A DNA stretch of 64,000 nucleotides from an uncultured Methanosarcinales archaeon. GTDB lineage: Archaea; Nanobdellota; Nanobdellia; Woesearchaeales; GW2011-AR9. The translations under genes and the position numbers were made by a program. The notes beneath the pieces were generated by a model that saw only the letters and a list, made by a program, of their open reading frames with translations, did not search any database and was not told where the DNA came from. Positions 3,099 to 41,214 of this stretch are shown here, one piece after another. The stretch is taken from assembly GCA_964344285.1 (NCBI GenBank), contig CAYFMM010000003.1, positions 67,072 through 131,071 of the forward strand, in the 5' to 3' direction. How positions within the stretch are numbered: position 1 is the first letter of the stretch; every line of letters begins with the position of its first letter.

Positions 3099-3102
3099 TT
3101 TT

Positions 3103-4952: not shown

Positions 4953-5003
4953 TTGATATCTTTTTTAATTATGTTTTTTTAATTTAATAAACCTCATTTG
5001 ATT

Positions 5004-7076: not shown

Positions 7077-7177
7077 TTGTAGCTTTTTTGCTAGATTTCA
7101 CCTTTATTAGTTTTGTGATTAAATGGTCGTGTACATAAATGGTCATGTACATAATAGACCTTAAGATACTCTTTATA

Positions 7178-8029: not shown

Positions 8030-8118
8030 CTTTTATTTTGTTTCACTTTTTATTTTATTAATTGATTAGTCAATTGATTAATCAGTTAGTTAGTGTTAAG
8101 TTAGTTAGTTACGTGCTA

Positions 8119-9267: not shown

Positions 9268-9333
9268 TTGAAATTTATTTGAAATTTATTTGAAAGTCAT
9301 TGTAAAGTCTAACAAGGTTAAATTACAAAGCGA
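9268..9333. repeat. short tandem direct repeat (ATTTGAAATTT unit, about 2.5 copies) in the intergenic spacer
   Basis: The sequence ttgaaatttatttgaaatttatttgaaagtc lies between the PseC-like stop and the PseB-like start. Confidence 0.4.
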
Positions 9334-16960: not shown

Positions 16961-18916
16961 TTAATTTACTTTAAGTACAACAAAACTCCCTTCAGCTTGG
17001 TGTACTGGAGTAAACAAACCAGAATCTAGAAATTCTGTGTAACGTTGTTGTAAGAGAGTTTGTGTCCCATTGATCTCAAATAATGCATTAAAATACTTCA
17101 AGTCCATTAGAGGGTTAACAACAAAATATTCGTACTCATTCTCTTTTAAGAAGGTATAAAGATCATTAGCATCTTGCTCTAGTATCGAAGCACGTATGTC
17201 TTGAACTTCTTGGCACCATTCACAACTATATGCCCCGTATCCTATTGTTAGTTTATCTCGAGGAGAGTACAAAAACACAGGAGTATTATCTGGAATTGAG
17301 TCAAACCATTGGCCATATTGGAAAGGTTCTTGTGCAGACATAAATGAACCTGAAGTTGGCCAGATTGCAGTATTAAGTTCGTACTTTTGTTGAGCAGAAG
17401 TCAATAAAAGCCCTCCAATCACTATAACAAATAATGCAAGTTTTAATACTTTTTCTCGTCTGAAAAATGTAAGAAGTGCATAAAACCCTTCAGCTGCAAC
17501 TAAAGAGATTGGAATTGCCATAAGCATCCAAATACGAAAGGGAGCTCTTGCCACAGACACAGGAAAAGTTTGTCCATTGACACCCCAAAAAGTATAGATT
17601 AACCAAATCAGTGCCACTGCTCGCCACATATTTTTTTCAGTTACGATTGATGTTTTGTATCTAAAGATGAGATAAATCACTCCAAATAATGTCAAAATAG
17701 AGAGCACTATACCTACACCAATAGGATTATTGATCATGTTTTGTCCTTGTGCTACAAAAAAATCGCTAAATGTATACGCTCTAGAACCAGTACCACCTGG
17801 ACGTGTAATTGTTTGAAAAAATGAGACGATGAATTGTACGAGGTTAAAACCAGCTGAACCACCTAAGGCAAGTGTCTCTCCAGCCAGAGTTGTGCCACCC
17901 CCATAATATGCTACAAACTTACTAAAAGAGTATTTGTAGATCATTACACCCCACCAAAGCAAAGAGAGAATAATTCCGCCGGCTAAAGCAGCAAATTCAA
18001 TTTTCTTAAATTTCTTAGAAGTAATAGATGCAACGATAATATAGAGTAAAATTAAGGTTGAAAGTTTGATTGGTTGAGATATATTTTGACTAACCCAAAT
18101 TCCAGCTACCATAATTGCTGCCACATAAGCCCAACGTTTATCCTCAGATATTTTCAAAAACGCATACATTGTTGGAAAGAAAAGTGTGACTACAAGACTA
18201 TGAGCCCAAATAAAGTGGCTTAAGTAAGAAGGGATTACTGCTAAAACAAATGTTGCAAAGAGTGCTTTTTTTGAATCATGCATAAAGATTTTTGCAAAAA
18301 GATAAAAGAAGATAAACCCTAAAGAGATGATCAAGGAGTTAAAAAATTTGAGTGTCCAAGGCAAATCAGGAGCTGTTTGGTGAAGAATTCCCATTAAAAC
18401 GTTATATGCAGGAGGATAAATGTCAATATAGGACAAAACCACATCAATTTCATCAGTGTTAAGCTCAGGATCATATGCATTCTTTTCTACAGCCACATAT
18501 TTAGCACCAACTGAATGACCCCAAGGGTCTTCATTTTCTAAATAAGGATAACCAAATGCGCCTGAAAGATATGTGAATAATGATGCTATAGAGATTAAAA
18601 GAACAAGTAATAACATAACATCTTTTTTTGTTAGTTTAAAACTTTTGAATGTAAAGATTGGTTGTTTTCTTTTAACCTTAGTGTAGAGATCATAAATGGG
18701 GTAAGCCATACTTACTACAAGAAATATTTTCCAATCCAAAGGGATGCGTAAAAAATTAATTAAAACTGAGAGAATTGCAAAGACTCCTAAGCCCAACGAA
18801 ACATTTACAAAAAAGCGTTCTAATTTAGTTATTTGAGGGTTCCACCAAAAGGTTACTGTATGGCCCAGCCCCCATGTGTAAAGGAAGAACAGAAGAATCG
18901 TCACTATGTTTATCAT
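16961..18916 (-). CDS. polytopic GT-C-like membrane glycosyltransferase candidate
   Basis: 651 aa with about 13 TM helices and a ~150 aa C-terminal soluble domain. Overlaps the upstream GT-C gene by about 92 nt, so the start is uncertain. Confidence 0.4.
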   Translation of the reverse strand: MINIVTILLFFLYTWGLGHTVTFWWNPQITKLERFFVNVSLGLGVFAILSVLINFLRIPLDWKIFLVVSMAYPIYDLYTKVKRKQPIFTFKSFKLTKKDVMLLLVLLISIASLFTYLSGAFGYPYLENEDPWGHSVGAKYVAVEKNAYDPELNTDEIDVVLSYIDIYPPAYNVLMGILHQTAPDLPWTLKFFNSLIISLGFIFFYLFAKIFMHDSKKALFATFVLAVIPSYLSHFIWAHSLVVTLFFPTMYAFLKISEDKRWAYVAAIMVAGIWVSQNISQPIKLSTLILLYIIVASITSKKFKKIEFAALAGGIILSLLWWGVMIYKYSFSKFVAYYGGGTTLAGETLALGGSAGFNLVQFIVSFFQTITRPGGTGSRAYTFSDFFVAQGQNMINNPIGVGIVLSILTLFGVIYLIFRYKTSIVTEKNMWRAVALIWLIYTFWGVNGQTFPVSVARAPFRIWMLMAIPISLVAAEGFYALLTFFRREKVLKLALFVIVIGGLLLTSAQQKYELNTAIWPTSGSFMSAQEPFQYGQWFDSIPDNTPVFLYSPRDKLTIGYGAYSCEWCQEVQDIRASILEQDANDLYTFLKENEYEYFVVNPLMDLKYFNALFEINGTQTLLQQRYTEFLDSGLFTPVHQAEGSFVVLKVN

Positions 18917-20588
18917 TGCTTAATTTATGAGATTGCTCATATTTAAATACTTCTATTTGATGTAATGTATGATGACTTACAACTACGAAGTTTTTTTGAA
19001 GTAGGTCTTTATAATAGGTGTCTGTATTCCGCGATAATATAAGCCAGAAGTGTTGTTCATGTTGAAGTGTTGTAAGAAGTTCTTGACTGGCAATTGATTT
19101 TTTGTTTCGTTTACCTTGAGACCAAGTAAGAGGCAATTTTCTATAATCAAAAGATTCTGACATGTAAAAATCCAAAAGGAAGTTGCTAGAAAAACCCCCT
19201 CTATCAAGCAAAATTAAAGGCGGTTTTTGAGTAGATAACGGACCAGAGATAGAATCTGCTGAAGAATAACTTTCTTGGATTAAAGTAGATGCCTTTTGCC
19301 ATTGCGGTTTTGTTGTTTGTTGGTAGTAGGTTACAAGTGCAATTGTGTTAGTTAAAAGAATTGCGATAAGAATAATTATAGCAATTAACTTTGGGTAAGA
19401 AATATTAGATCTTTTAAAAATGGATTTTTTCCCCTCAACATTTTTTATCTTCGAAAATAAAAGAGCAGTAAGAAATTTTGCCATGAGTAAGTAGATTAGA
19501 GGAACAAGAAAATACGAATGCCTAATGAGTGCATAAGAATATATTATTGGGCGACGAATGAGGTTTAATCCAAATATGTTTAAAGAATTAAAAGTGAGAT
19601 AAAGATATAACATAAGAGCGATGAGAATTATTACCAAGGAAGTCCAAGGGAGTGCAGGGTGCTGCAAGAGTGATTTAAAAGAAATTGATTTTTGAAAGTA
19701 GGAGATCATTTTTTTTTTGAGGAGTACGGGAATTAGTGCTACTAATAACAACAATAATACAGGCACAAGCCAAAGAATAGGGCCAAGTTGTGCAAGGAAA
19801 GAAGGCACACCTTTAGCAGTAAGTATTGTAGCTGCTCCATTAATTGAAGTCATAAATTGTGTAATGATTAGGGGCAATAAAGGTAGGCTAAGTAAAACAA
19901 TAAATAGCAAAGAGATAAGCCATTTTTTCCAGGAAATTAATTCTTTAAACCATAAGCTTAGAAGAATAAACAAGAGGAGTAAAGGTCCTGTCATGTAGTT
20001 TGTGTAAAATGCAAGAACCATAGTTATGATAAAAAAAATGTAGTAGAACCATAGTTTTGAGTTAGAAGATTTTGAGTTAGAGGAATTAGAGGAATAAAGT
20101 ATTTTTACAAAGAAATACCCTGCAAGTAAAGTTAAAAAACCATAAAGTGCGTAGAGGCGTGCTTCTTGTGTATAGAGAACTTGTAACATTGAAGTTGCTA
20201 AAAAAAGCGTTGCAAGCAAAGCTGTTGTTGATGCATGTCGTGAGGTTTTTGCAGGAAGTGCTTTTGCTAAATAAAAGATTACAATAATTGCAGCAACCCC
20301 AAAAAGGGCTGAGAGTAAACGTACTGTAAATGTAGAAGTTCCAAACAATTGTATCCAGTAGTGAAGCAACAAATAATGTCCAAGAGGAGCTCCTTCAGTT
20401 GCAGCAACACCCAAGACTAGTTCATCAAAGGACGAAGAAGATGCAATTTGCAAAGAATATGCCTCATCTGTCCAAAGATTCTCTTGATCTAAGTGATATA
20501 AGCGTAAAGTTGTCCCTAATAAAAGAATTAAAATTAAGAGCAAAGTGGTATTTTTAAGATACAATGATAGTTTAGAGTTTGGTTTCAC
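18825..20588 (-). CDS. ArnT/PMT-like GT-C glycosyltransferase (family 39/83-like)
   Basis: N-terminal signature LYHLDQENLWTDEAYSL (the ArnT/PMT DE-motif loop) in a ~13 TM protein with a C-terminal soluble domain. Confidence 0.6.
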   Translation of the reverse strand: MKPNSKLSLYLKNTTLLLILILLLGTTLRLYHLDQENLWTDEAYSLQIASSSSFDELVLGVAATEGAPLGHYLLLHYWIQLFGTSTFTVRLLSALFGVAAIIVIFYLAKALPAKTSRHASTTALLATLFLATSMLQVLYTQEARLYALYGFLTLLAGYFFVKILYSSNSSNSKSSNSKLWFYYIFFIITMVLAFYTNYMTGPLLLLFILLSLWFKELISWKKWLISLLFIVLLSLPLLPLIITQFMTSINGAATILTAKGVPSFLAQLGPILWLVPVLLLLLVALIPVLLKKKMISYFQKSISFKSLLQHPALPWTSLVIILIALMLYLYLTFNSLNIFGLNLIRRPIIYSYALIRHSYFLVPLIYLLMAKFLTALLFSKIKNVEGKKSIFKRSNISYPKLIAIIILIAILLTNTIALVTYYQQTTKPQWQKASTLIQESYSSADSISGPLSTQKPPLILLDRGGFSSNFLLDFYMSESFDYRKLPLTWSQGKRNKKSIASQELLTTLQHEQHFWLILSRNTDTYYKDLLQKNFVVVSHHTLHQIEVFKYEQSHKLSNDKHSDDSSVLPLHMGAGPYSNLLVEPSNN

Positions 20589-20707
20589 TTAGAAAAATAA
20601 ACCATAAAATTCAGGTTATAAATGTTATGAATGTAAAGTGTAAAAAAGACATTGTCACCCTTATTTTGATTCAAAAAACATATAAACGCATGATTATTAG
20701 TCAGACT

Positions 20708-21766
20708 ATGTCTTTTAGTTGGTTGAAATATGTGCTCCAAGCAATGGGGATTGCTATTTTAGTTGTTTTTCTTACAACAATAAGTAAGGAGAATTTAACT
20801 GGAGGTATGAGCAGAATTAACATCTTATTGTTAAGCGGAATTATTATTCTAACGTTATTAAACTTGATTCTTAAAGGATGGAGATGGCAAATTTTGGTAG
20901 GCCTTGTTTCGGGTTCAAAAGTTAAATTACGTTTTTGTGTTTACTCAGTTATTGCTGGAGTTGCAGGAGGAAGTTTTATTCCAGGCAGAATGGAGATGGT
21001 AAAACCCATGCTTTTAAAGACGCATGAACAGATCCCCTTTGCAAAATCAGTTCCAGCAATATTAACAGAGAGAGTTCTTGACTTTGTGATGATTGGAGTT
21101 CTTTTTGTATCGGCTTTAATTCTTGTGCCATTAGATGGATTTTCAGGAAATTCAGTTGTCTCGTTAATTGTTCTCTTAATTATTGCTGTATTGGTATTAC
21201 GCTTTATTCCCCCTCTTTTTTATCAAAAAATTGCAGATTTTTTTTTACAAATTTTACCTATTAAAGGAAGATTAAAAGAGCGAGTGCAGCGATTTTTAAA
21301 ACAGTTTTTTATAACAATGCAAGAGATTCAAAAAAGCAAAAGAGGCACTATTTTGACATCATTGTCTTTAGTTGCAATCTTGTTAGAGATTACTCGTCTT
21401 GTATTTATTTTATATTCATTTGGCCTAAATGTCACACTGCCTTCTGTAGTGCTTGCATTTAGTGCAAGTGTTTTTATTAGTATTCTTAGTCTAATTCCTG
21501 GAGGAGTGGGGATTAGTGAAGTTTCATTGTCAGGCATCTTGCATAATCTTAACCCTACTGCTTCTGGGGGCTTAATTAAGAGTGCAATTATTACAAATCG
21601 CTTTTTTGCATATTATTTGTTAGTGTTAATTGGAGTTGGGTTGATTTTTGGGCTCTCACGCCACAAGAAGCTTATTGAGCAATCTTCTGTGAAGGCAGAT
21701 GAGAAAACCAATAAAGTTGAGGGAGTAGATAATACTAAGATACAAAAGGACCTAAAAGAAGATTAG
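20708..21766 (+). CDS. flippase-like membrane protein (UPF0104 / lysylphosphatidylglycerol synthase TM region family)
   Basis: Polytopic membrane protein immediately upstream of a DPM1/ArnC-like GT2. Start placed at the internal Met MSFSWLKY. Confidence 0.5.
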   Translation: MSFSWLKYVLQAMGIAILVVFLTTISKENLTGGMSRINILLLSGIIILTLLNLILKGWRWQILVGLVSGSKVKLRFCVYSVIAGVAGGSFIPGRMEMVKPMLLKTHEQIPFAKSVPAILTERVLDFVMIGVLFVSALILVPLDGFSGNSVVSLIVLLIIAVLVLRFIPPLFYQKIADFFLQILPIKGRLKERVQRFLKQFFITMQEIQKSKRGTILTSLSLVAILLEITRLVFILYSFGLNVTLPSVVLAFSASVFISILSLIPGGVGISEVSLSGILHNLNPTASGGLIKSAIITNRFFAYYLLVLIGVGLIFGLSRHKKLIEQSSVKADEKTNKVEGVDNTKIQKDLKED

Positions 21767-21829: not shown

Positions 21830-22555
21830 ATGAAACGCGTATCTATTGTAATTCCTTGTTATAATGAAGAAGATGGGATCCATCATTTAGCTGCTGAGTT
21901 AAAACCTGTGTTAGAAGAGGTGCAAAAAAAGTATGAGATCGAAGTGATCTTAGTTGATGATGGGAGTAAGGATCAGACTTTTGCAAGACTACAAGAATTT
22001 TTTACTGAAGATTATGCAAAAATTGTGCAGCACGAAAAAAATATGAATCTTGGAGCTGCACTACGTACTGGAATTAGCCACACTACTGGAGATTATGTTG
22101 TAATGATTGATAGTGATTGTAGTTTTCACCCAAGGGTAATTTTAAAATTGTTAGAAAATGTAAATGAAGATACCGACATAGTAAGTGCCACTGGGCTACA
22201 TCCTGAAGGTGGACAGCATGTAGGGACTGGAAAACATAGGTTATTTTTGAGTAAAGCAGTAGCTGGGATGTACCAATTATTATTAGGAAAAAAAGTGTAT
22301 TCACCTACTTCTATGAATAGAGTGTATAAGCGAAAGGTATTGGATAATGTTTCATTTAAAGAGAATGGATTTATGGCAGTTACAGAATTGTTAGTAAAAT
22401 CGTTGTTAAAAGGATATAGTTTTAAGGAAATTCCGTTCACAAATAAGAAAAGACAATTTGGTGTTTCTAAGATGAAATTTTCAAAAACAGCTAAAGAGCA
22501 TTTAGTGTTAATGTCAAGAATTTTAAGATATAGGTTGCAAAAAAATGAATGGTAA
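21830..22555 (+). CDS. GT2 polyprenyl-phosphate sugar synthase (DPM1/ArnC/GtrB-like)
   Basis: VSIVIPCYNEEDGI, ILVDDGSKDQT, and VVMIDSDCS (DXD). Confidence 0.7.
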   Translation: MKRVSIVIPCYNEEDGIHHLAAELKPVLEEVQKKYEIEVILVDDGSKDQTFARLQEFFTEDYAKIVQHEKNMNLGAALRTGISHTTGDYVVMIDSDCSFHPRVILKLLENVNEDTDIVSATGLHPEGGQHVGTGKHRLFLSKAVAGMYQLLLGKKVYSPTSMNRVYKRKVLDNVSFKENGFMAVTELLVKSLLKGYSFKEIPFTNKKRQFGVSKMKFSKTAKEHLVLMSRILRYRLQKNEW

Positions 22556-23291
22556 GAGTTGCTTTGAAGCAGACGATATCGAACAGTTAGGAACAGGAGA
22601 GCTTAGTAGTACTGCCATCATTTCTCCAAGAGCAAGTATTGGGAAAAATTGTAAAATAGGACATTTTGCAGTAATTAACGACAATGTAGAATTGGGAGAT
22701 AACTGTGTTGTCGAAAATAATGTGACTTTAGGCCATCCATTAGGGAACTCTCATTTAGATAAAAATTATGAAAATCCTAAGACTATTATTGGTAAAAATA
22801 GTATTATAAGAACAAATTCTGTAATTTATTGTGGAGTTAGGTTTGCAGAGAATGTTGAAACAGGGACTAATGTTGTAATTAGAGAACACAGTAGCTTTGA
22901 TTCAGGAACATTCATTAGCACACTTGCTCAGGTTCAAAATAATAGCACCGTGGGAAGGAATGTAAATATCAGAACTAATGCGCATATTACAGCTAATATG
23001 ATTATAGAGGACAATGTGTTTGTTGGTGCAGGAGTTGTGACTACGAATGACAATAAACTATTACGCAAAGAGGATAGAACTAGAATTCAAGAAAATCAAG
23101 AACAGGTGGTGTTGCAAGGTCCAGTTCTACGAAAGGGAGCAAGAGTTGGAAGTAATTGTACTATCTTGCCGAATGTTGAAATAGGAGAAGGTTCTATCAT
23201 TGCAGCAGGTTCAGTAGTACGTAAAAGCATTGGAGCACAGAGTATAGCGGGAGGTAATCCTGCAGTAACTATTCGAAAATTACAGGAATGA
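22545..23291 (+). CDS. left-handed beta-helix (hexapeptide repeat) acyl/acetyltransferase
   Basis: Multiple hexapeptide repeats and a C-terminal GGNPA motif. Confidence 0.6.
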   Translation: MNGKSCFEADDIEQLGTGELSSTAIISPRASIGKNCKIGHFAVINDNVELGDNCVVENNVTLGHPLGNSHLDKNYENPKTIIGKNSIIRTNSVIYCGVRFAENVETGTNVVIREHSSFDSGTFISTLAQVQNNSTVGRNVNIRTNAHITANMIIEDNVFVGAGVVTTNDNKLLRKEDRTRIQENQEQVVLQGPVLRKGARVGSNCTILPNVEIGEGSIIAAGSVVRKSIGAQSIAGGNPAVTIRKLQE

Positions 23292-23301
23292 ATAAAAGGG
23301 T

Positions 23302-23721
23302 ATGAGAAGAAACAATATGAATTTTGCTACAGGAGTTGACATAGAGTTAATAGAGCGTTTTGAAAAAATATCATATGAAGAAAAAAGGGCTTTTTATGAT
23401 CGAGTGTTTACGCAACAAGAGCAGGAGTATTGCATAAAAAAAGCAAAACCAAGCCAACATTTTGCTGTACGTTTTTGCGCTAAAGAAGCAGTGATTAAAG
23501 CGTTAGGAGAATTTGGAGAGATTGTTGATGCACGAGAAATTGAGATTATTAAATCAGAGATAAATGTTCCAAAAGTAGTAATTCATAACAAAAGAATTAA
23601 GGAGTTATTCCCAAAATTAAAGGTTAAAATCAGCTTAGCACATGCAGGGGGCAATGCAATTGCCAGTGCATTTTTATACAACGAAGGCTGTAGAGTAAAA
23701 GAAGGGGTCAGAAATGAATAA
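23302..23721 (+). CDS. acpS: holo-[acyl-carrier-protein] synthase (4-prime-phosphopantetheinyl transferase, AcpS-like)
   Basis: GVDIELIERFEK near the N-terminus. Length 139 aa. Confidence 0.6.
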   Translation: MRRNNMNFATGVDIELIERFEKISYEEKRAFYDRVFTQQEQEYCIKKAKPSQHFAVRFCAKEAVIKALGEFGEIVDAREIEIIKSEINVPKVVIHNKRIKELFPKLKVKISLAHAGGNAIASAFLYNEGCRVKEGVRNE

Positions 23722-23959
23722 AGAACAGTTAAAAGAAATTATTGTAAAAGCATTAGGAGTTACAAAGCAGTATAGTATTGAAGAATTTAAAAGATTAAGT
23801 GCCGACGATATTGAATCTTGGGATTCTATTGGACATTTACAGTTAGTCTCAGAGATTGAGAAAATAACAGGAATAGAATTGAGTATAGAAGAAGTTAGTT
23901 TAATGGATAGTGTAAGAAAAATCATTGAGATTTTGCAGGAAAAAAATATATTAGAATAA
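23714..23959 (+). CDS. acyl carrier protein
   Basis: 81 aa acidic protein with a phosphopantetheine attachment context DDIESWDSIGHLQLV (the DSx Ser). Confidence 0.6.
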   Translation: MNKEQLKEIIVKALGVTKQYSIEEFKRLSADDIESWDSIGHLQLVSEIEKITGIELSIEEVSLMDSVRKIIEILQEKNILE

Positions 23960-24006
23960 ATTTTGTGATATAAAGAAGGAGATTTGAGTAAATAAAATTT
24001 GAGAAA

Positions 24007-25551
24007 ATGAATGTAGTCAACTATTTGTTTGAAAATTCGTGGAAATCTGAGAAAAACGTAATTTTAGGCAGAGATGAAGAGATCACGTATAAAGAACTGA
24101 GTAGAAGGGTATTTGGGACTGCAAGGTTTTTGCAAGAGAAAATTGAAGAAAAAAGAACCGAGAATAAAAAAGATAAACCTCACGTAATTGTAATGGCCAA
24201 GAATTCTACTTTTTTTATAGAATCATATCTAGGAACAATACTTGCTGGAGCAATTTGTGTGCCAGTCGATATTAAGGCTTCTAAGAATAAGCTTGAAGAA
24301 ATTTTAAGGATAACAAATGCCAAACACTTATTTGTGAGTAAAAAGTGCATGCAAAGAGTTCAAGATTTTTTTTCAAAGCAGGAGTTAGAAGAGAGAAAAA
24401 TCATACTTATTGAAGAAAATGATTTAGAGAGTGAACTTAGTAAAAGTTCACATATAGATTATCAAAGAGATTTTTTTCCAACTGTGTATAATGCTAATGA
24501 TGAAGAGACAGCAGTGATTATTTTCACTTCAGGTTCTGAAGGCAAACAAAAGGGAGTGATGTTAAGCCATAGAAATATTATTGCAAACACAGACTCAATT
24601 GTTAAGTACTTAAAATTGAGTGAAAAAGATGTAATGGAAGTAGTGTTACCGTTCTACTACTGTTATGGGACTTCGCTATTGCATACGCATCTTCGTGTAG
24701 GTGCAGGATTGGTATTAAACAATAAATTTTTTCTTCCTGGTACAGTTATTGAAGATTTGAATAAGTATAAGTGTACCGGTTTTGCAGGAGTTCCAAGTAC
24801 ATTTCAAATCCTGTTGCGAGTTGCAAAAATAGACAAACATACATTTCCTTTTCTACGTTATATGACGCAAGCGGGAGGGAAATTGCCAGAAGAAATGATT
24901 AAGGAGATGATAAAAGCAATTAATCCTGCACAGTTTATTGTAATGTATGGGCAAACTGAAGCAACGGCAAGATTATCGTATCTTCCTGCAGAGTATAATC
25001 TATCAAAACTAGGTTCTATTGGTAAGGGAATTCCAGGCGTACAATTAGAGGTATTGAGTGAAGAAGGGAAACAAATTAAGGTTGGCGAGAAAGGAGAATT
25101 AGTTGCTTTTGGAGATAATGTAATGCAAGGATATTTTAAAGATATAGAGTTGACTGCAAAAATATTGCGAGAGGGAAAATTATATACAGGAGATCTTGCT
25201 ACAGTAGACGAAGAAGGGTTTATTTATATTGTAGGAAGAGGAAAACAAATTCTCAAAGTGGGAGGAAATAGAGTCTCTCCAAAAGAAATTGAAAATGTGA
25301 TTTGTATGATGCCTGAGGTTGTAAGTTGTGCTGTAATTGGAAAAGAGGATGCAATATTGGGAGAAGCAATCAAAACGTTTGTTGTATTACAAAAAGAAGC
25401 TAAAGAGAAGATTTTTGCAGAGGATATAAAAGCGTGGTGTAAAGAGAAGTTAGAGACATATAAAATTCCAAAAGAGATAATGATTGTTGAGAGTCTTCCA
25501 ACAAATAGTTATGGAAAAGTAATGATTGAAGAGTTAAAAAGATTAAAATGA
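24007..25551 (+). CDS. AMP-dependent synthetase/ligase (acyl-CoA / acyl-ACP ligase)
   Basis: AMP-binding motif IIFTSGSEGKQKGVMLSHRN and the C-terminal GDL...Y...GR region. Confidence 0.75.
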   Translation: MNVVNYLFENSWKSEKNVILGRDEEITYKELSRRVFGTARFLQEKIEEKRTENKKDKPHVIVMAKNSTFFIESYLGTILAGAICVPVDIKASKNKLEEILRITNAKHLFVSKKCMQRVQDFFSKQELEERKIILIEENDLESELSKSSHIDYQRDFFPTVYNANDEETAVIIFTSGSEGKQKGVMLSHRNIIANTDSIVKYLKLSEKDVMEVVLPFYYCYGTSLLHTHLRVGAGLVLNNKFFLPGTVIEDLNKYKCTGFAGVPSTFQILLRVAKIDKHTFPFLRYMTQAGGKLPEEMIKEMIKAINPAQFIVMYGQTEATARLSYLPAEYNLSKLGSIGKGIPGVQLEVLSEEGKQIKVGEKGELVAFGDNVMQGYFKDIELTAKILREGKLYTGDLATVDEEGFIYIVGRGKQILKVGGNRVSPKEIENVICMMPEVVSCAVIGKEDAILGEAIKTFVVLQKEAKEKIFAEDIKAWCKEKLETYKIPKEIMIVESLPTNSYGKVMIEELKRLK

Positions 25552-26645
25552 CTGCCACAAAAAAGGTAATTACAATACTTGGAACACGCCCAGAGATCAT
25601 CAAATTATCTCCCGTAATCCCATTATTAAAAGAGGAGTTTGAACACTTAATTGTACACACAGGACAACATTATTCAGCAAATTTAGATCATGTTTTTTTT
25701 GAAGAATTGCAACTACCAAAGCCAGATTATAATTTACATATTGGGTCTGGCGCTCAAGGATATCAGACTGGCAAGATGATGATTGAGTTGGAGAAGATTT
25801 TTGCAAAAGAAAAACCAGATGCAGTCGTTGTACAAGGAGATACAAATACAGCTCCTGCAGTGGCATTAACAGCTGTGAAAATGCACATCCCAATTATGCA
25901 TATTGAATCAGGCTCAAGATCATTTAAGCGAGAAATGCCAGAAGAGATTAATAGAGTAATTGCAGATCAACTTGCAGATGTCTTATTTGCAAATGATGAG
26001 ATTTGCAAAAAGAATTTACGTCAAGAAGGGATTGATGAAGAAAAGATTAAGATTGTTGGAAATACCGCAGTCGATGCACTTGAAAGGAATAAAAAATTAG
26101 CAGATGATGGGATTTTGCAAAGATTAGCTGTGAGTAAAAAAGAATATATTTTAACTACAGTGCATAGAGCAGAAAATACACAAGAGAAAAATTTACGAGA
26201 GATTATTGAAGCACTAAATGAGATTGCTGAAAAGAAAAAAATTATTTTTCCTATGCATCCGCGTACGAAAAATGCGGTGGAGAAGTATGGAATTGAAGTT
26301 TCAAAGAGAATTGTTGTTCTTGAACCAGTAGGGTTTTTAGAATTTATTGCACTAATGGACAACGCATTATTTGTGGTGACTGATTCTGGAGGAATTCAAA
26401 GAGAATGTGCAGGTTTAAATGTGCCATGTTTAGTTGTGCGTAATGAGACGGAAGCAAAAGATGTTTTTGAAGCTGGAAAAACAATATTGATAGGAAATAA
26501 GAAGGAGGGGATAGTAAGTAAGGTTGCAGAATTAATTGAGTCTCCAGAAAAGATCATAGAGATTGAAAATAAGCCTTATGTTACAAAGGAAAATATTTCA
26601 GAGAATATTGTTAAAGAGATTGCTCGTTTTTTAGAGTTAAGGTAG
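25548..26645 (+). CDS. UDP-N-acetylglucosamine 2-epimerase (non-hydrolysing, WecB-like)
   Basis: ILGTRPEIIKLSPV...HTGQH and the later VQGDTNT motif. Confidence 0.8.
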   Translation: MTATKKVITILGTRPEIIKLSPVIPLLKEEFEHLIVHTGQHYSANLDHVFFEELQLPKPDYNLHIGSGAQGYQTGKMMIELEKIFAKEKPDAVVVQGDTNTAPAVALTAVKMHIPIMHIESGSRSFKREMPEEINRVIADQLADVLFANDEICKKNLRQEGIDEEKIKIVGNTAVDALERNKKLADDGILQRLAVSKKEYILTTVHRAENTQEKNLREIIEALNEIAEKKKIIFPMHPRTKNAVEKYGIEVSKRIVVLEPVGFLEFIALMDNALFVVTDSGGIQRECAGLNVPCLVVRNETEAKDVFEAGKTILIGNKKEGIVSKVAELIESPEKIIEIENKPYVTKENISENIVKEIARFLELR

Positions 26646-26724: not shown

Positions 26725-27807
26725 ATGATTCCAGTAGCAAAACCAATACTTGGAAAAGAGGAACAAGAGGCGGTACAAGAGGTTCTTTGTTCAGGCATGA
26801 TTGCACAAGGAGATAAGGTTACAGAGTTTGAAAAGGCTTTTGCAGAGTTTACAGGAGTTAAACATGCAATCGCAACCTCTAATGGAACTACTGCTTTACA
26901 TGTAGCATTATTGGCGCATGGGATTAAAGCAGGCGATGAGGTAATAACTACTTCGTTTTCTTTTATTGCAACAGGCAGCGCAATTAAAATGGTTGGCGCT
27001 ACACCTGTGTTTATTGATATTTCTAAAGATGGGTTTATGATTGACGTTGAAAAAATTGAAGCAGCAATTACACCAAGAACCAAAGCAATTTTGCCAGTTC
27101 ATCTATTTGGCGAGATTTGTGAGATGCAAAAGATAATGGAAATTGCACAAAAGCATAATCTTATTGTAATTGAAGATGCGTGCCAAGCTCATGGAGCAGA
27201 ACTGAGTGAGAAAAAAGCAGGTTCATTTGGTACTGGTTGTTTCTCATTTTATCCTACAAAGAACATGACAACAGGCGAAGGTGGAATGGTTACAGCAAAT
27301 GATGATGTTATTGCAGCAAAAGTGCGAAAGAAAATCAACCATGGTTCTGTGCAACGATATTATCATGACGAAGTAGGATATAATTTTAGGATGACAAATA
27401 TTGCTGCAGCTATTGGGCTTGCTCAACTTCAAAAAATAGAAGGGTTTACAGCACAAAGAAGAGAAAATGCTGCTAAATTACAGAATATGCTTTTTGCAAA
27501 GCAAGGGATTGTTCTACCTAAGGGAGTAGAAGATAAAAAACATGTATTTCACCAATATACAATTAGAGTTACTAAAGAATATGAGAAAAGTCGAGAAGAA
27601 GTAATGAAATATTTACAAGAACAAGGCGTAGGGTGTGCTGTGTATTATCCTGTGCCAATCCATAAGCAAGAAGCGTTTGCTAAGCAGAATAATCTTTCTT
27701 TACCAAATACCGAAAGAGTTGCAAAAGAAGTACTCTCTTTACCTGTGCATCCAGGACTACGTGAAGAAGATTTTAAGAGAATGCAAGAGGTGTTTAAAGC
27801 ACTATGA
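26725..27807 (+). CDS. DegT/DnrJ/EryC1/StrS family sugar aminotransferase
   Basis: PLP aminotransferase motifs ATSNGTTALHVAL and FSFYPTKNMTTGEGG. Confidence 0.8.
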   Translation: MIPVAKPILGKEEQEAVQEVLCSGMIAQGDKVTEFEKAFAEFTGVKHAIATSNGTTALHVALLAHGIKAGDEVITTSFSFIATGSAIKMVGATPVFIDISKDGFMIDVEKIEAAITPRTKAILPVHLFGEICEMQKIMEIAQKHNLIVIEDACQAHGAELSEKKAGSFGTGCFSFYPTKNMTTGEGGMVTANDDVIAAKVRKKINHGSVQRYYHDEVGYNFRMTNIAAAIGLAQLQKIEGFTAQRRENAAKLQNMLFAKQGIVLPKGVEDKKHVFHQYTIRVTKEYEKSREEVMKYLQEQGVGCAVYYPVPIHKQEAFAKQNNLSLPNTERVAKEVLSLPVHPGLREEDFKRMQEVFKAL

Positions 27808-28775
27808 TGAAAATAGCTGTAATTGGAGTTGGTTCAATGGGGCAAAACCATGCAAGAGTATTGTTTAATTTAGATGAAGCACAATTAGCTGCTGTTGCAG
27901 ATATGGACATAATATCCGCACAAAAGATTGCACAAAAATATAATGTAAAAGCGTACAAAGATTACAAAGAGATGCTTGACTTAGAGGAAATTGATGCAGT
28001 ATCTATTGCAGTGCCTACAAGGTTTCATAAAGATGTTGCTATTTATGCCCTAGAAAAAGGTAAGCATGTGTTGTTAGAAAAACCAATTGCATCAAATGAA
28101 GTAGAAGCTCAAGAGATTATTGCTTGTGCAAGAAGAAATAATTGTAAATTAATGATTGGCCATATTGAAAGGTTTAATCCAGCAATTCAAGAGCTTAAAA
28201 AAAGAGTAGAAGAGCTAGGAGAAATTTACAAAATTGATGTGCAAAGAATTGGTTCATTTCCTGCAAGAATTGCAGATGTAGGTGTGATTGTTGATTTATC
28301 TGTGCATGATATTGATATTGTAAATTACTTATTAAATTCAAGAATTAAACGGATTTATGCAGAAAAACAGCAGAAGTTACATGCATCACACGAAGATTCT
28401 GTAACTGCATTAATCACATATACAAACGATGTGTTAGCAGTATTAAACATTAATTACTTATCTCCCACTAAAACAAGGTTGTTAAAAGTGTTTGGAAAAA
28501 AAGGTATGTTTTTAGTAAATTATCTAGAACAAGAATTATTCTTTTATGAAAATTCTGGATTTTCAAGTACTGATTGGAATTCTGTACGTGAAGGAGATAT
28601 GCACAAGATTACGATTGCAAAAAAAGAGCCTTTGGTTGCAGAAATTGAGGCGTTTGTGAGATGTATTAGAGAAAATTGTGAACCTGATGTTAATGGAGAA
28701 CATGGATTAGAGGTGTTAAAAACTGCTCAAACAATCCATAAGTCAGCATATGAAAATAAAATTATTGAGTTGTGA
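27804..28775 (+). CDS. Gfo/Idh/MocA family NAD-dependent sugar oxidoreductase (WbpB-like)
   Basis: N-terminal Rossmann motif MKIAVIGVGSMGQNH and the LLEKP motif. Confidence 0.75.
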   Translation: MMKIAVIGVGSMGQNHARVLFNLDEAQLAAVADMDIISAQKIAQKYNVKAYKDYKEMLDLEEIDAVSIAVPTRFHKDVAIYALEKGKHVLLEKPIASNEVEAQEIIACARRNNCKLMIGHIERFNPAIQELKKRVEELGEIYKIDVQRIGSFPARIADVGVIVDLSVHDIDIVNYLLNSRIKRIYAEKQQKLHASHEDSVTALITYTNDVLAVLNINYLSPTKTRLLKVFGKKGMFLVNYLEQELFFYENSGFSSTDWNSVREGDMHKITIAKKEPLVAEIEAFVRCIRENCEPDVNGEHGLEVLKTAQTIHKSAYENKIIEL

Positions 28776-39278: not shown

Positions 39279-39415
39279 TGCATACCAGCTTGACCGGATT
39301 TCTGACGTTGCTCTTTTCCAAAAGATGATTAACTTGTATTTACATCTCGTGGCAAGAGCAACTTCTAGAAGATAGTACCATTACCTTTATAAGGGGAAAT
39401 TTTGCCATATTCTAC

Positions 39416-41006: not shown

Positions 41007-41007
41007 A

Positions 41008-41214
41008 ATGGTTACAGAAAAAAAGAAACGAAGTATTGCAAAGGCGCTGAGTTGGAGAGTTACAGCAACATTAATTACAACAGTTCTTGTTTTTATATTT
41101 ACAGGTCAGTTTACATTAGCAATCTCAGTGGGGGTTGTTGAAGTCTTATTGAAAATGCTAGCGTATTATGCGCATGAACGTTCATGGGACAAAATTAACT
41201 GGGGGAGATTTTAA
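41008..41214 (+). CDS. small two-helix membrane protein (DUF2061-like) inside the cys operon
   Basis: 68 aa with two hydrophobic helices, tightly packed between cysD and cysN with overlapping stop and start. Confidence 0.4.

What the first reader, a model, noticed from the sequence alone, without database searches (positions are those of the whole stretch)
22545..25551. Bacterial-style acyl carrier protein cassette (AcpS, ACP, AMP-ligase, hexapeptide acyltransferase) in an archaeal genome
Established knowledge: archaea generally lack ACP and AcpS. Seen in sequence: four co-directional, overlapping genes encode a hexapeptide acyltransferase, an AcpS-like PPTase (GVDIELIERFEK), an 81-aa ACP with a DSIGHL serine context, and an AMP-dependent ligase. 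They sit directly upstream of the WecB/DegT/MocA amino-sugar genes. Inference: an acyl group is loaded onto ACP by the ligase and transferred by the LbH enzyme to an amino sugar (N-acylation). This resembles bacterial O-antigen and nonulosonate N-acylation cassettes. The cassette is probably a horizontal acquisition.
Basis: partly seen in the sequence, partly recalled or inferred. Interest (0 to 1): 0.7.

Follow-up and report, generated by a model that had tools for sequence, protein, structure and literature searches.

The report
Archaeal glycan locus with ACP cassette
An uncultured archaeon carries, inside a cell-surface sugar operon, a bacterial-type kit (carrier protein, the enzyme that switches it on, a loading enzyme and a transferase) that most likely attaches an unusual acid to an amino sugar, so carrier-protein genes in archaea can serve glycan decoration rather than fatty-acid synthesis.

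Summary
Four co-directional genes at 22545-25551 encode a QdtC-like hexapeptide N-acyltransferase, an AcpS-type phosphopantetheinyl transferase (PPTase), an 81-aa acyl carrier protein (ACP) and an AMP-forming ligase. They sit in an archaeal window (thermosome, type II MetAP) between a GT2 gene and WecB/DegT/3-dehydrogenase genes.

The ACP alone misses Pfam's cut-off (17.0 vs 20.8 bits). Its family profile, its AlphaFold model (pLDDT 94.6; Ser38 at the start of helix II) and its fold matches make it an ACP of the specialised Geobacter GmACP3 type (W-D-S-x-x-H motif).

The ACP-ligase pair is a widespread bacterial module, usually followed by LuxE/LuxC. It also occurs in Methanomicrobiales, a Woesearchaeota MAG and Promethearchaeum MK-D1.

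A PPTase is built into the cassette in 5 of 6 named archaeal loci and in none of 74 bacterial loci. An acyltransferase directly precedes AcpS-ACP-ligase in six loci and is fused to AcpS in one.

Best reading (about 0.6): the ligase loads an acid, possibly a dicarboxylate, onto holo-ACP, and the LbH enzyme N-acylates UDP-GlcNAc3N. The acyl group and the ACP dependence of the transferase are inferred.

Bacterial affinity is supported. Recent transfer is not: composition matches the host.

This is a new variant of a known but biochemically uncharacterised kind.

The parts
18825..20588 (-). Large polytopic membrane protein, weakly PMT_2/ArnT-like (GT-C). Context gene; a counterpart is also present in the closest related locus L006.
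   Evidence: PF13231 22.2 bits, below the 26.1 cut-off. L006 carries PMT_2 and LPG_synthase_TM next to its cassette.
20579..21766 (+). LPG_synthase_TM-family membrane protein (MprF-flippase-like). Context gene.
   Evidence: PF03706 117.6 bits. L006 has a homolog scoring 150 bits by phmmer.
21830..22555 (+). GT2 glycosyltransferase (polyprenyl-phosphate sugar synthase-like). First gene of the co-directional run; overlaps the LbH start by 11 nt.
   Evidence: PF00535 104.8 bits; coordinates.
22545..23291 (+). Left-handed beta-helix (hexapeptide) N-acyltransferase of the QdtC/WlbB class. Proposed to transfer the ACP-bound acyl group to the 3-amino group of UDP-GlcNAc3N.
   Evidence: Hexapep 106.4 bits. 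Best PDB hit is QdtC 3fs8, E 4.8e-21, over residues 23-244, followed by 7s43, FdtD-like 4mzu and WlbB 3mqg. 55% identical to the LbH of L006, which occupies the same position.
23302..23721 (+). AcpS-type 4'-phosphopantetheinyl transferase (holo-ACP synthase). A start at 23317, giving 134 aa, was used by a public gene call.
   Evidence: PF01648 61.1 bits; TIGR00556 78.1 bits (above 45.35); TIGR00516 56.4 bits (just below 59.8). The GVDIEL and AKEAVIKALG motifs align with GVDVEL and AKEAVFKSLG of the yeast FAS PPTase 2was.
23714..23959 (+). 81-aa specialised acyl carrier protein with a W-D-S-x-x-H motif (GmACP3 type). Overlaps AcpS by 8 nt.
   Evidence: PF00550 17.0 bits alone. Family profile against 2lml gives E 3.5e-17. 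54 of 60 relatives hit PF00550. Model pLDDT 94.6. Foldseek top hits are all ACPs with TM 0.77-0.83, and 2lml is identified there as the Geobacter metallireducens holo-ACP.
23825..23827 (+). Codon of Ser38, the predicted phosphopantetheine attachment site.
   Evidence: S38 is invariant in 60 relatives. It is the first residue of helix II (38-52) in the model.
24007..25551 (+). AMP-forming (ANL) ligase, proposed to load a carboxylic acid onto holo-ACP. Its stop overlaps the WecB start by 4 nt.
   Evidence: PF00501 233.2 bits and PF13193 67.9 bits. The core motifs TSGSEGKQKG, YGQTE, YTGDL and SYGKV can be read in the translation. The family has 64% mean column identity. A W-D-S-x-x-H ACP gene lies directly upstream of the ligase in Clostridium, Planctomycetota and archaeal loci.
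25548..26645 (+). Non-hydrolysing UDP-N-acetylglucosamine 2-epimerase (WecB/WbpI-like).
   Evidence: TIGR00236 346.1 bits (cut-off 210.15).
26725..27807 (+). DegT/DnrJ/EryC1-family sugar aminotransferase (WbpE-like role proposed).
   Evidence: PF01041 445.6 bits.
27804..28775 (+). GFO/IDH/MocA oxidoreductase. Its best match is the archaeal UDP-GlcNAc 3-dehydrogenase model (WbpB-like role proposed).
   Evidence: NF040723 321.9 bits, below the 450 cut-off; PF01408 115.3 bits.
28791..29702 (+). GT2 glycosyltransferase resembling archaeal AglJ and dolichyl-phosphate hexose transferases. Last gene of the run.
   Evidence: TIGR04182 148 bits (below 325); NF041391 111.3 bits; PF00535 73.3 bits.

Best explanation
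The region is a self-contained, carrier-protein-dependent sugar N-acylation module embedded in an archaeal surface-glycan operon.

Proposed steps:
1. AcpS converts the apo form of the 81-aa carrier protein to the holo form by adding phosphopantetheine from CoA to Ser38. The host, like nearly all archaea, is not expected to have a housekeeping AcpS, so the cassette brings its own.
2. The AMP-forming ligase adenylates a free carboxylic acid and thioesterifies it onto holo-ACP.
3. In parallel, the downstream 3-dehydrogenase and DegT aminotransferase convert UDP-GlcNAc to UDP-GlcNAc3N.
4. The QdtC-like LbH enzyme transfers the acyl group from acyl-ACP to the 3-amino group. WecB epimerises at C2, and the flanking GT2 enzymes pass the sugar on to a lipid carrier or glycan.

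Related cassettes pair this ligase with enzymes that need a free second carboxylate: LuxE/LuxC reduction in Clostridia and archaea, and AsnB/NadE-type amidation in Bacteroidota. The loaded acid is therefore plausibly a small dicarboxylate. The window, which lacks those tailoring genes, would transfer it untailored.

Shown: the identity and intactness of the four proteins, their operon context, and the conserved gene neighbourhoods. Inferred: loading onto ACP rather than CoA, use of acyl-ACP by the LbH, the acceptor, and the nature of the acyl group.
For: Parts and fold.

ACP-ligase coupling: a high-scoring W-D-S-x-x-H ACP ORF (62-95 bits against the family HMM) lies 230-370 nt upstream of the ligase start in Clostridium, Planctomycetota, Woesearchaeota, Methanomicrobiales, Promethearchaeum and metagenome loci. 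The two genes often overlap by 4 nt.

Acyltransferase coupling: the order acyltransferase-AcpS-ACP-ligase recurs in six loci.
- Window and L006: QdtC-like LbH.
- L088 and L090: PglD-type acyltransferase.
- L078, Methanoregula: two LbH genes.
- L016, Woesearchaeota: one 347-aa PglD_N+Hexapep+ACPS fusion protein.
In Bacteroidota and in the two best metagenome LbH hits, the ligase is directly followed by a related LbH.

PPTase pattern: an AcpS HMM built from 124 sequences plus an Sfp-type query finds a PPTase in 5 of 6 named archaeal loci and in 0 of 74 bacterial loci. My hypergeometric calculation gives p of about 2.5e-7. This fits archaea lacking a host AcpS (PMC3533463; bioRxiv 10.1101/2024.07.05.601840).

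Acceptor: the LbH's best solved relatives act on 3-amino sugars. Among 43 context-rich relatives, 24 have a GFO/IDH/MocA dehydrogenase nearby, 18 a WecB and 17 a DegT. The only other LbH in the window is O-acetyltransferase-like.

Precedent: V. cholerae O1 RfbL is described as activating 2,4-dihydroxybutanoate and putatively attaching it to CoA or to the carrier protein RfbK for perosamine N-acylation (PMC12208996; PMC3441752). Promethearchaeum L050 has ACP, ligase, Fe-ADH, LuxE, LuxC, LbH and a PPTase.

Dicarboxylate hint: LuxE/LuxC neighbours, AsnB and NAD-synthase-like neighbours, and nearest solved ligases being malonyl-CoA and oxalyl-CoA synthetases.
Against: - No biochemical data exist for any member of this ligase/ACP family that I could find.
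- Most distant relatives of the LbH (27-38% identity) sit in loci with a 3-dehydrogenase, WecB and DegT but without a ligase (only 4 of 43 have one) or an ACP (1 of 43). The ancestral donor for this LbH family is therefore probably acetyl-CoA, and the window LbH could be the ordinary pathway acetyltransferase.
- LbH, WecB, DegT and the 3-dehydrogenase alone already make up a complete WbpD/I/E/B-like set.
- Ligase-linked LbHs do not form a single clade.
- The ligase scores best against acyl-CoA ligase models, so CoA rather than ACP as the acceptor is not excluded.
- The dicarboxylate idea rests on neighbours that are absent from the window. The invariant Arg322 after the YGQTE motif aligns with Asn and Leu in MatB and AAE3, so no carboxylate-binding residue could be mapped.
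Confidence: 0.6

Rival explanations
1. The LbH enzyme is the ordinary acetyl-CoA-dependent UDP-GlcNAc3N N-acetyltransferase (WbpD/WlbB role) of a 2,3-diacetamido-sugar pathway. The AcpS-ACP-ligase trio is inserted next to it but feeds a different acceptor through an unidentified transferase, for example another amine or hydroxyl of the glycan, or the nonulosonic acid made by the genes at 887-10350.
For: LbH, WecB, DegT and the 3-dehydrogenase form a complete known-type pathway on their own. In 43 loci carrying distant LbH relatives, a 3-dehydrogenase (24), WecB (18) or DegT (17) is common, while the ligase (4) and ACP (1) are rare. The window also holds a GNAT at 2526-3134, an O-acetyltransferase-like LbH at 45675-46394, and a full Pse/Leg-like gene set that could take an acyl group.
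Against: No other acyltransferase lies in the operon. The acyltransferase-AcpS-ACP-ligase order is conserved in six loci using two different acyltransferase subfamilies, and in L016 the acyltransferase is fused to AcpS. The closest LbH relatives (L006 at 55%; L093 and L094; L022 and L074) are all ligase-linked.
Confidence: 0.22
2. The ligase and carrier protein form an aminoacyl-carrier system of the DltA/DltC or AlmE/AlmF kind. An amino acid (for example Asp, Glu, Ala or Gly) is loaded on the carrier and then attached to the amino sugar as an aminoacyl amide. This is a variant of the main model that differs in the cargo.
For: The pairing of a small stand-alone carrier protein with a roughly 500-aa adenylating enzyme matches Dlt and Alm (established knowledge). 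The ligase also matches the amino-acid adenylation domain model TIGR01733 at 190 bits and the gramicidin synthetase A domains at E of about 3e-42. Asp or Glu would also satisfy the free-second-carboxylate logic behind the LuxE/LuxC and AsnB neighbours.
Against: TIGR01733 is far below its 317.4 cut-off. The best NCBIfam and PDB matches are acyl-CoA, malonyl-CoA and oxalyl-CoA synthetases. No racemase or Dlt/Alm-type transferase is present.
Confidence: 0.1
3. The cassette is unrelated to the glycan. Ligase, ACP and AcpS would activate an acid for a lipid, aldehyde, alcohol or secondary-metabolite pathway, as the stand-alone ACP-ligase-LuxE-LuxC sets of Clostridium may do, and it merely sits in the glycan island.
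For: In Clostridium the ACP-ligase-LuxE-LuxC set is not in a polysaccharide locus. It lies beside a sigma-54 activator and HpaB/AbfD-like, acetyl-CoA hydrolase/transferase and Fe-ADH genes.
Against: In the window the trio is wedged between sugar-pathway genes with overlapping or near-abutting reading frames. There are no LuxE/LuxC, ketosynthase or FAS genes anywhere in the 64 kb. All archaeal relatives inspected sit among glycan genes.
Confidence: 0.05

Closest known systems
Vibrio cholerae O1 tetronate genes rfbK-rfbO (wbeK-O): ACP RfbK, ligase RfbL/WbeL and partners, which N-acylate perosamine with 3-deoxy-L-glycero-tetronate (2,4-dihydroxybutanoate)
   Same: A small carrier protein and an AMP-forming ligase sit inside a glycan locus and supply a non-acetyl N-acyl group for an amino sugar. 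RfbL is described as activating 2,4-dihydroxybutanoate and putatively attaching it to CoA or to RfbK (PMC12208996), and wbeL is needed for the O1 antigen (PMC3441752). From my own recollection of Morona et al. 1995 (Gene 166:19), which I did not read here, the set also has an Fe-ADH, a LuxC/LuxE-like protein and an acetyltransferase-like protein. That is the parts list I see in Promethearchaeum L050.
   Different: The window has no LuxE, LuxC or alcohol dehydrogenase. It has its own AcpS, the host is archaeal, and the likely acceptor is a 3-amino GlcNAc derivative rather than perosamine. Sequence homology between the window proteins and RfbK/RfbL was not tested because no V. cholerae sequence was available to me.
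[quoted passage not shown] 2011, cited in PMC4847154)
   Same: It is the best solved relative of the window ACP: E 7e-4 with the single sequence and 3.5e-17 with the family profile. It shares the W-D-S-x-x-H context around the modified serine and the association with polysaccharide genes.
   Different: Only about 21-30% identical. It is bacterial. Its cargo and partner enzymes are also unknown. I could not read the primary paper.
[quoted passage not shown]
   Same: It has the same module as loci L006, L016, L078, L088 and L090 (ACP, ligase, LuxE, LuxC, SDR) beside nonulosonic-acid genes. Its function there is likewise unassigned.
   Different: The window lacks LuxE, LuxC and SDR. The Aeromonas islands have no cassette PPTase. 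The authors guessed at a lipid-like substituent, which is not established.
WbpB/WbpE/WbpD/WbpI-type pathway to UDP-2,3-diacetamido-2,3-dideoxy sugars (Pseudomonas and Bordetella; also Methanococcus N-glycans; established knowledge), and QdtC (PDB 3fs8)
   Same: A 3-dehydrogenase, an aminotransferase, an LbH N-acyltransferase and a 2-epimerase are all present and adjacent. Distant relatives of the LbH usually sit in exactly such loci.
   Different: An AcpS-ACP-ligase trio is inserted between the acyltransferase and the epimerase, implying a donor other than acetyl-CoA. The 3-dehydrogenase scores below its NCBIfam cut-off (322 against 450 bits).
DltA/DltC (D-alanylation of teichoic acids) and AlmE/AlmF/AlmG (glycine addition to Vibrio lipid A); established knowledge
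   Same: The logic is the same: a stand-alone adenylating enzyme loads a small phosphopantetheinylated carrier protein, and a transferase then decorates a cell-envelope glycoconjugate.
   Different: The cargo there is an amino acid and the transferases are not LbH enzymes. The window ligase is closer to acyl-CoA, malonyl-CoA and oxalyl-CoA synthetases.

Membership tests
Acyl carrier protein (PF00550 PP-binding superfamily) | Match to the PP-binding profile at or above the gathering score | tested here: inconclusive
   The window protein alone scores 17.0 bits against a 20.8 cut-off. However, 54 of 60 relatives match PF00550 (best E 1.9e-11), and the family profile matches E. coli, Aquifex and other ACPs at about 1e-10.
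Acyl carrier protein (PF00550 PP-binding superfamily) | Four-helix ACP fold with the conserved Ser at the N-terminus of helix II, in a D-S motif | tested here: met
   The AlphaFold model has pLDDT 94.6 and helices at 3-14, 38-52, 58-63 and 67-76, with Ser38 as the first residue of helix II. Foldseek top hits are all ACPs with TM 0.77-0.83. D37-S38 is invariant in 60 relatives.
Acyl carrier protein (PF00550 PP-binding superfamily) | Ser actually carries 4'-phosphopantetheine | not testable with these tools
   This needs mass spectrometry of the protein co-expressed with the adjacent AcpS.
Fatty-acid-synthesis ACP (AcpP, TIGR00517) | Equivalog-level match, with type II FAS genes (FabD/H/F/G/Z/I) present | tested here: not met
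   TIGR00517 scores 15.9 bits against a 70.45 cut-off. No FAS-type domain was found in any annotated ORF of the window.
GmACP3-like specialised ACPs (W-D-S-x-x-H) | Trp before D-S and His three residues after Ser; closest solved structure is 2lml; polysaccharide-locus context | tested here: met
   W36, D37 and S38 are invariant and H41 is at least 90% conserved. 2lml is the top PDB hit and is identified as the Geobacter metallireducens holo-ACP. The glycan context is shown.
AcpS-type phosphopantetheinyl transferase (PF01648; TIGR00556) | Profile match above cut-off; about 120-140 aa with a single domain; conserved Asp and Glu/Lys motifs | tested here: met
   PF01648 scores 61.1 bits (cut-off 25) and TIGR00556 78.1 bits (cut-off 45.35). 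The equivalog TIGR00516 is just missed at 56.4 against 59.8. GVDIEL and AKEAVIKALG align with the corresponding motifs of 2was.
ANL adenylate-forming ligase (PF00501/PF13193) | N- and C-terminal domains with the core motifs, including the catalytic Lys | tested here: met
   233.2 and 67.9 bits. TSGSEGKQKG, YGQTE, YTGDL and SYGKV are present in the translation and conserved in alignment A2.
ANL adenylate-forming ligase (PF00501/PF13193) | Acceptor is the carrier protein rather than CoA | not testable with these tools
   Only inferred, from the conserved ACP gene directly upstream in at least 16 loci across bacteria and archaea.
V. cholerae rfbK-O-type (tetronate-like) N-acylation cassette | ACP + AMP-ligase + LbH acyltransferase | tested here: met
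V. cholerae rfbK-O-type (tetronate-like) N-acylation cassette | LuxE/LuxC-type reductase and an alcohol dehydrogenase that tailor the acyl group | tested here: not met
   No LuxE, LuxC, Fe-ADH or SDR is present in the window. They are present in relatives L006, L016, L050, L078, L088 and L090.
V. cholerae rfbK-O-type (tetronate-like) N-acylation cassette | Sequence homology to RfbK and RfbL themselves | not tested
   No V. cholerae sequence was available in the tools I used.
WbpB/E/D/I-type UDP-2,3-diamino-sugar pathway | UDP-GlcNAc 3-dehydrogenase, aminotransferase, N-acyltransferase and 2-epimerase encoded together | tested here: inconclusive
   All four families are adjacent. WecB passes its equivalog cut-off (346 against 210). 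The 3-dehydrogenase model NF040723 scores 322 bits, below 450, and DegT and LbH are assigned only at family level. Substrates were not tested.

The most novel reading that the evidence does not exclude
Archaea that decorate their surface glycans with non-acetyl N-acyl groups do so with a portable, self-sufficient carrier-protein module (acyltransferase-PPTase-ACP-ligase, with or without LuxE/LuxC/SDR). The built-in PPTase is an archaea-specific adaptation to the lack of a host AcpS. The module has spread among Methanomicrobiales, DPANN-like archaea and the Asgard archaeon Promethearchaeum. The window represents a minimal form that puts an untailored, probably acidic (dicarboxylyl), acyl group on a 2,3-diamino sugar. 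As a corollary, ACP and PPTase genes found in archaeal genomes report glycan tailoring, not bacterial-type fatty-acid synthesis.
Probability: 0.35. Interest if true: 0.7.

Novelty: new variant of a known kind. Interest (0 to 1): 0.55.

Why it matters
ACP and AcpS are treated as markers of bacterial-type fatty-acid synthesis, and their near-absence from archaea is a pillar of the 'lipid divide' discussion. These results show that when the two genes do turn up in archaea, including the cultured Asgard archaeon MK-D1, they can belong to a glycan-tailoring cassette with no FAS genes nearby. Presence/absence surveys should therefore not count them as lipid genes.

The results also define a compact four-protein system (PPTase, ACP, ligase, LbH transferase). 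It could be reconstituted in E. coli to find the cargo of a very widespread ligase/ACP family that is still uncharacterised. Members include those in Clostridium, Bacteroidota, Acidobacteriota and the Aeromonas flagellin islands.

The work predicts a new N-acyl substituent on archaeal surface glycans. Finally, the rule that the PPTase travels with the cassette only in archaea is a clean example of how a transferred pathway is made host-independent.

Tried and rejected
1. Naming the organism. Exact look-ups of window proteins returned no names. The project and run accessions PRJEB17505, ERR2281800/1 and ERZ930061 appear in no held paper. The window's genome is not among the GTDB representatives, where the best ligase match is 50%. 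The lineage therefore stays 'uncultured low-GC archaeon'.

2. Composition as an HGT test. GC and codon usage of the four genes match the host. The nearest bacterial relatives (Clostridium loci at 29-31% GC) are equally AT-rich, so the test has little power.

3. Resolving the direction and number of transfers. NJ trees with 100-200 bootstraps resolve only shallow clades: WINDOW+L006 at 88-89% and Methanomicrobiales at 89%. An all-archaea clade appears in 0 of 200 replicates, and the deep nodes are star-like. No ML program was available.

4. tblastn with the 81-aa ACP missed most neighbours and was replaced by a family HMM.

5. Reading the cargo from the ligase pocket. The family-invariant Arg322 after YGQTE aligns with Asn and Leu in malonyl-CoA and oxalyl-CoA synthetases, so nothing could be concluded.

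6. Asking from the LbH side whether close relatives always carry the ligase. The metagenome scan returned only distant relatives at 27-38% identity. These mostly lack the ligase, which weakens rather than settles the question.

7. The primary GmACP3 paper (PMC3063093) is not held.

8. The idea that the cassette makes fatty acids was rejected. There are no FAS genes, and the ACP is far below the AcpP model.

9. Whether L006, L088 and L090 are archaeal could not be established from their gene content.

Full report
**1. What is there.**
ORF listing confirms four co-directional ORFs at 22545-23291, 23302-23721, 23714-23959 and 24007-25551. They belong to a longer + strand run:
- GT2 (21830-22555), overlapping the next gene by 11 nt
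- LbH
- AcpS, after a 10-nt gap
- ACP, overlapping AcpS by 8 nt
- ligase, after a 47-nt gap
- WecB, overlapping the ligase by 4 nt
- DegT
- GFO/IDH/MocA oxidoreductase, overlapping DegT by 4 nt
- an AglJ-like GT2 (28791-29702)

Profile searches give the following:
- LbH: Hexapep 106 bits.
- AcpS: PF01648 61 bits and TIGR00556 78 bits, both above cut-off.
- Ligase: AMP-binding 233 bits plus AMP-binding_C 68 bits.
- WecB: TIGR00236 346 bits (cut-off 210).
- DegT: 446 bits.
- Oxidoreductase: best match is the archaeal UDP-GlcNAc 3-dehydrogenase model NF040723 at 322 bits, below its 450 cut-off.

The window is archaeal. The thermosome scores 735 bits against a 450 cut-off and the type II methionine aminopeptidase passes its cut-off. 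There is also a lone 5S rRNA and a tRNA-His.

The surrounding 50 kb is one large glycan island. It holds a Pse/Leg-like nonulosonic acid gene set, GT1/GT2/GT4 enzymes, a Wzx-like flippase, a PAPS/sulfotransferase module and a UDP-sugar dehydrogenase. No LuxE, LuxC, ketosynthase or other FAS-type domain occurs anywhere in it.

**2. Is the 81-aa ORF an ACP?**
An exhaustive HMMER scan of 1.8 billion representatives found 366 relatives at E up to 1e-3, nearly all 72-90 aa.

In an alignment of 60 of them, W36, D37 and S38 are invariant and H41 is at least 90% conserved. Of those 60, 54 hit PF00550. The family profile hits PDB 2lml at E 3.5e-17 and canonical ACPs at about 1e-10.

An AlphaFold model built on this alignment has pLDDT 94.6, with helix II beginning exactly at Ser38. 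All top Foldseek matches are ACPs with TM 0.77-0.83. That output also identifies 2lml as the holo-ACP of Geobacter metallireducens. This is GmACP3, described as a specialised ACP with a putative lipopolysaccharide role (Ramelot et al. 2011, cited in PMC4847154).

The protein is far from the fatty-acid ACP model: TIGR00517 scores 15.9 bits against 70.45. It is therefore a carrier protein of a specialised, polysaccharide-associated type.

**3. The other three proteins look functional.**
The AcpS aligns over its whole length with AcpS-type PPTases, and its GVDIEL and AKEAVIKALG motifs are conserved. The ligase keeps the ANL core motifs, and its family is tightly conserved at 64% mean column identity.

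The LbH's best solved relative is QdtC, at E 4.8e-21 over residues 23-244. Next come other 3-amino-sugar N-acetyltransferases, namely 7s43, a WxcM/FdtD-like protein and WlbB. The only other LbH in the window (45675-46394) resembles maltose/galactoside O-acetyltransferases.

**4. Relatives and their contexts.**
The ligase has thousands of relatives. The best named ones, at 47-53% identity over the full length, are almost all Clostridium.

A scan of one genome per GTDB species found at least 596 loci. Among the best 80, 74 are bacterial: Clostridium, Bacteroidales, Flavobacteriaceae, Acidobacteriota, Planctomycetota and others. Six are archaeal: a Woesearchaeota MAG, three Methanoregula/Methanoregulaceae MAGs, a Methanomicrobiales MAG, and Promethearchaeum syntrophicum MK-D1.

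Using a family HMM for the ACP and phmmer for the other parts, two architectures emerge.

(a) A high-scoring W-D-S-x-x-H ACP gene lies immediately upstream of the ligase, usually followed by LuxE and LuxC, with or without an SDR. This is seen in Clostridium, Planctomycetota, all the PPTase-bearing loci and MK-D1.

(b) In Bacteroidota and Acidobacteriota, a weaker ACP-like ORF lies 1.2-3.4 kb upstream. In L074 the order is ACP-like ORF, asparagine-synthase-like protein, NAD-synthase-like protein, ligase, LbH, sugar transferase and GFO/IDH/MocA.

The closest relative of the window ligase is metagenome contig L006 (53% identity; sister in NJ trees at 88-89% bootstrap). It has the same LbH-AcpS-ACP-ligase order, with an LbH 55% identical to the window's. 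It continues with LuxE, LuxC and SDR, and it also carries LPG_synthase_TM and PMT_2 genes as the window does.

Other contexts:
- L088 and L090 have a PglD-type acyltransferase, then AcpS, ACP, ligase, LuxE, LuxC and SDR, beside NeuB, CMP-transferase, dehydratase and aminotransferase genes.
- The Woesearchaeota locus L016 has the same set, with the acyltransferase and AcpS fused in one 347-aa protein.
- Methanoregula L078, whose archaeal nature is confirmed by adjacent topoisomerase VI genes, has two LbH genes followed by AcpS, ACP, ligase, LuxE, LuxC and two SDRs.
- Promethearchaeum L050 has GT4, ACP, ligase, Fe-ADH, LuxE and LuxC. An Sfp-type PPTase and a QdtC-like LbH lie within 8 kb.

**5. 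The PPTase rule.**
I built a sensitive AcpS HMM from 124 sequences and added an Sfp-type query. Together they find a PPTase near the ligase only in L006, L016, L050, L057, L073, L078, L088 and L090.

Among taxonomically named loci that is 5 of 6 archaeal and 0 of 74 bacterial. About 66 of the bacterial loci have at least 2 kb of upstream sequence. My own hypergeometric calculation gives p of about 2.5e-7, or 4e-7 with the stricter denominator.

This is what one expects if bacteria rely on their housekeeping AcpS while archaea cannot. [quoted passage not shown] In archaea the module must therefore bring its own activating enzyme.

**6. Mechanism.**
The best-supported reading runs as follows:
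- AcpS makes holo-ACP.
- The ligase adenylates an acid and loads it on the ACP.
- The 3-dehydrogenase and DegT make UDP-GlcNAc3N.
- The LbH transfers the acyl group to N3.
- WecB epimerises the sugar and the GT2 enzymes use it.

Evidence that the acyltransferase is part of the carrier system:
- It occupies a fixed position directly upstream of AcpS-ACP-ligase in six loci.
- Two different acyltransferase subfamilies fill that slot.
- The L016 fusion joins the acyltransferase to AcpS.
- The ligase is directly followed by an LbH in Bacteroidota and in the two best metagenome LbH hits.

The precedent is V. cholerae O1. There RfbL is described as activating 2,4-dihydroxybutanoate and putatively attaching it to CoA or to the carrier protein RfbK, for N-acylation of perosamine (PMC12208996, PMC3441752). 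Aeromonas flagellin glycosylation islands carry the ACP/SDR/ligase/LuxE/LuxC set next to pseudaminic acid genes, with function unassigned (PMC7874193).

On the cargo I can only infer. LuxE-type synthetases and AsnB/NadE-type amidotransferases act on free carboxylates. An ACP-tethered substrate that they tailor should therefore have a second carboxylate. The nearest solved ligases are malonyl-CoA and oxalyl-CoA synthetases.

The window has no tailoring genes and would transfer the acid as it is. I could not map a carboxylate-binding residue in the ligase.

**7. What argues against.**
Approached from the LbH side, 43 context-rich loci with distant relatives (27-38% identity) mostly show the plain dehydrogenase/aminotransferase/epimerase neighbourhood: 24, 17 and 18 loci respectively. 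Only 4 have a ligase and only 1 an ACP. Ligase-linked LbHs do not form one clade.

The window LbH could therefore be the ordinary acetyl-CoA enzyme of a diacetamido-sugar pathway, with the ACP trio feeding something else. I give this rival about 0.22. No member of this ligase/ACP family has been characterised biochemically in the literature I could search.

**8. Horizontal transfer.**
The module is bacterial in type and overwhelmingly bacterial in distribution. Archaeal ligases are polyphyletic in NJ trees, with an all-archaea clade in 0 of 200 bootstraps. MK-D1 groups weakly (50%) with Clostridium. The AcpS's relatives include a Gastranaerophilales AcpS and one in a clearly bacterial context. 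This fits transfer from bacteria, probably more than once.

The deep nodes are unresolved, however. The cassette's GC (0.337 against 0.342 for the window) and its codon usage (z from -0.75 to +0.73) are indistinguishable from the host's. Any transfer is therefore not recent, or it came from an equally AT-rich donor. The cassette is neither unique to this genome nor ubiquitous in archaea.

**9. Verdict.**

The finding is a new archaeal variant of a known but uncharacterised bacterial kind of glycan N-acylation module. The variant has a built-in PPTase and lacks the LuxE/LuxC tailoring genes.

Its main value is threefold:
- It cautions against reading archaeal ACP and PPTase genes as lipid genes.
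- It offers a compact, reconstitutable system for finding the cargo of a very widespread ligase/ACP family.
- It predicts an unusual N-acyl diamino sugar on archaeal surfaces.

Noticed in passing
window 887-10350 (mostly - strand): A complete-looking nonulosonic acid (pseudaminic/legionaminic-type) gene set: Polysacc_synt_2 dehydratase (9334-10350), DegT aminotransferase (8119-9267), aldo/keto reductase (7178-8029), NeuB+SAF synthase (3861-4952), GT2 (3103-3882), GNAT (2526-3134) and an Epimerase_2-related protein (887-2560). The 690-aa protein at 5004-7076 is an unusual fusion of a CMP-sugar cytidylyltransferase (CTP_transf_3) with a class-III aminotransferase (best model PRK06209).
   Followed up: partly
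window 29742-33302 (+): A 1186-aa multidomain protein directly after the operon. It has an N-terminal cytidylyltransferase-like domain, then a region resembling PRK05849, then a PEP-utilizers mobile domain, and a C-terminal PPDK_N ATP-grasp domain. It looks like a PEP-synthase-type phosphotransfer enzyme fused to a nucleotidyltransferase. Function unknown.
   Followed up: no
window 38457-43671 (+): A sulfate-activation and sulfotransfer module inside the glycan island: sulfotransferase (38457-39278), CysQ-like inositol-monophosphatase family protein (39416-40210), CysD-like PAPS_reduct-domain protein (40203-41006), a CysN-CysC fusion (41214-43085) and a second APS kinase (43066-43671). This suggests sulfated surface glycans in this archaeon.
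   Followed up: no
window 23052-23115 (LbH residues about 170-190): The window LbH and its L006 counterpart carry a Lys/Arg-rich insert (KLLRKEDRTRIQENQEQ and KMLRRIDIKRGKK). It is absent from the LbHs of L050, L022 and L074 and falls at a gap in the QdtC alignment. It could be a docking loop for the acidic carrier protein, but that is speculative.
   Followed up: partly
L016:8726-9769 (Candidatus Woesearchaeota MAG CAZRTL010000001.1): A single 347-aa ORF combines PglD_N and Hexapep (sugar N-acyltransferase) with a C-terminal ACPS domain. It lies directly upstream of ACP-ligase-LuxE-LuxC-SDR and among NeuB, epimerase, DegT and dehydratase genes. The fusion links the acyltransferase to the carrier system.
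   Followed up: yes
L004, L007, L089 (Clostridium and Clostridium-like contigs), ligase at about 10001 (5146 in L089): In Clostridium the ACP-ligase-LuxE-LuxC set stands alone, outside any glycan locus. It is followed by a sigma-54 activator and by HpaB/AbfD-like, NifU, acetyl-CoA hydrolase/transferase and (in L004 and L089) Fe-ADH genes, which resemble a 4-hydroxybutyrate-type pathway. The same module may have a non-glycan role there.
   Followed up: no
L050:8411-18592 (Promethearchaeum syntrophicum MK-D1, NZ_CP042905.2): The cultured Asgard archaeon carries GT4, ACP, ligase, Fe-ADH, LuxE and LuxC, plus an Sfp-type PPTase (AASDHPPT_N+ACPS, 270 aa), DUF354, a QdtC-like LbH and a MaoC dehydratase. 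From my recollection of Morona et al. 1995, this is the same parts list as the V. cholerae tetronate genes.
   Followed up: partly
window 50973-51085 (-): An isolated 5S rRNA gene (69 bits) with no 16S or 23S within the 64 kb. It overlaps the 5' end of the mechanical ORF 51040-51936, whose true start is probably further downstream.
   Followed up: no
window 58601-60076 (-): A 491-aa protein combines a CDP-alcohol phosphatidyltransferase domain with a diacylglycerol-kinase catalytic domain. This is an unusual fusion for an archaeal lipid enzyme. tRNA-His (58461-58536) and histidyl-tRNA synthetase (56135-57403) lie just beside it.
   Followed up: no
window 16961-18916 (-): A 651-aa ORF with no Pfam or NCBIfam match. 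It is called as 582 aa in a public assembly. It sits next to the weakly PMT_2-like 587-aa membrane protein and a Wzx-like flippase. It is a candidate novel glycan-processing membrane protein.
   Followed up: no
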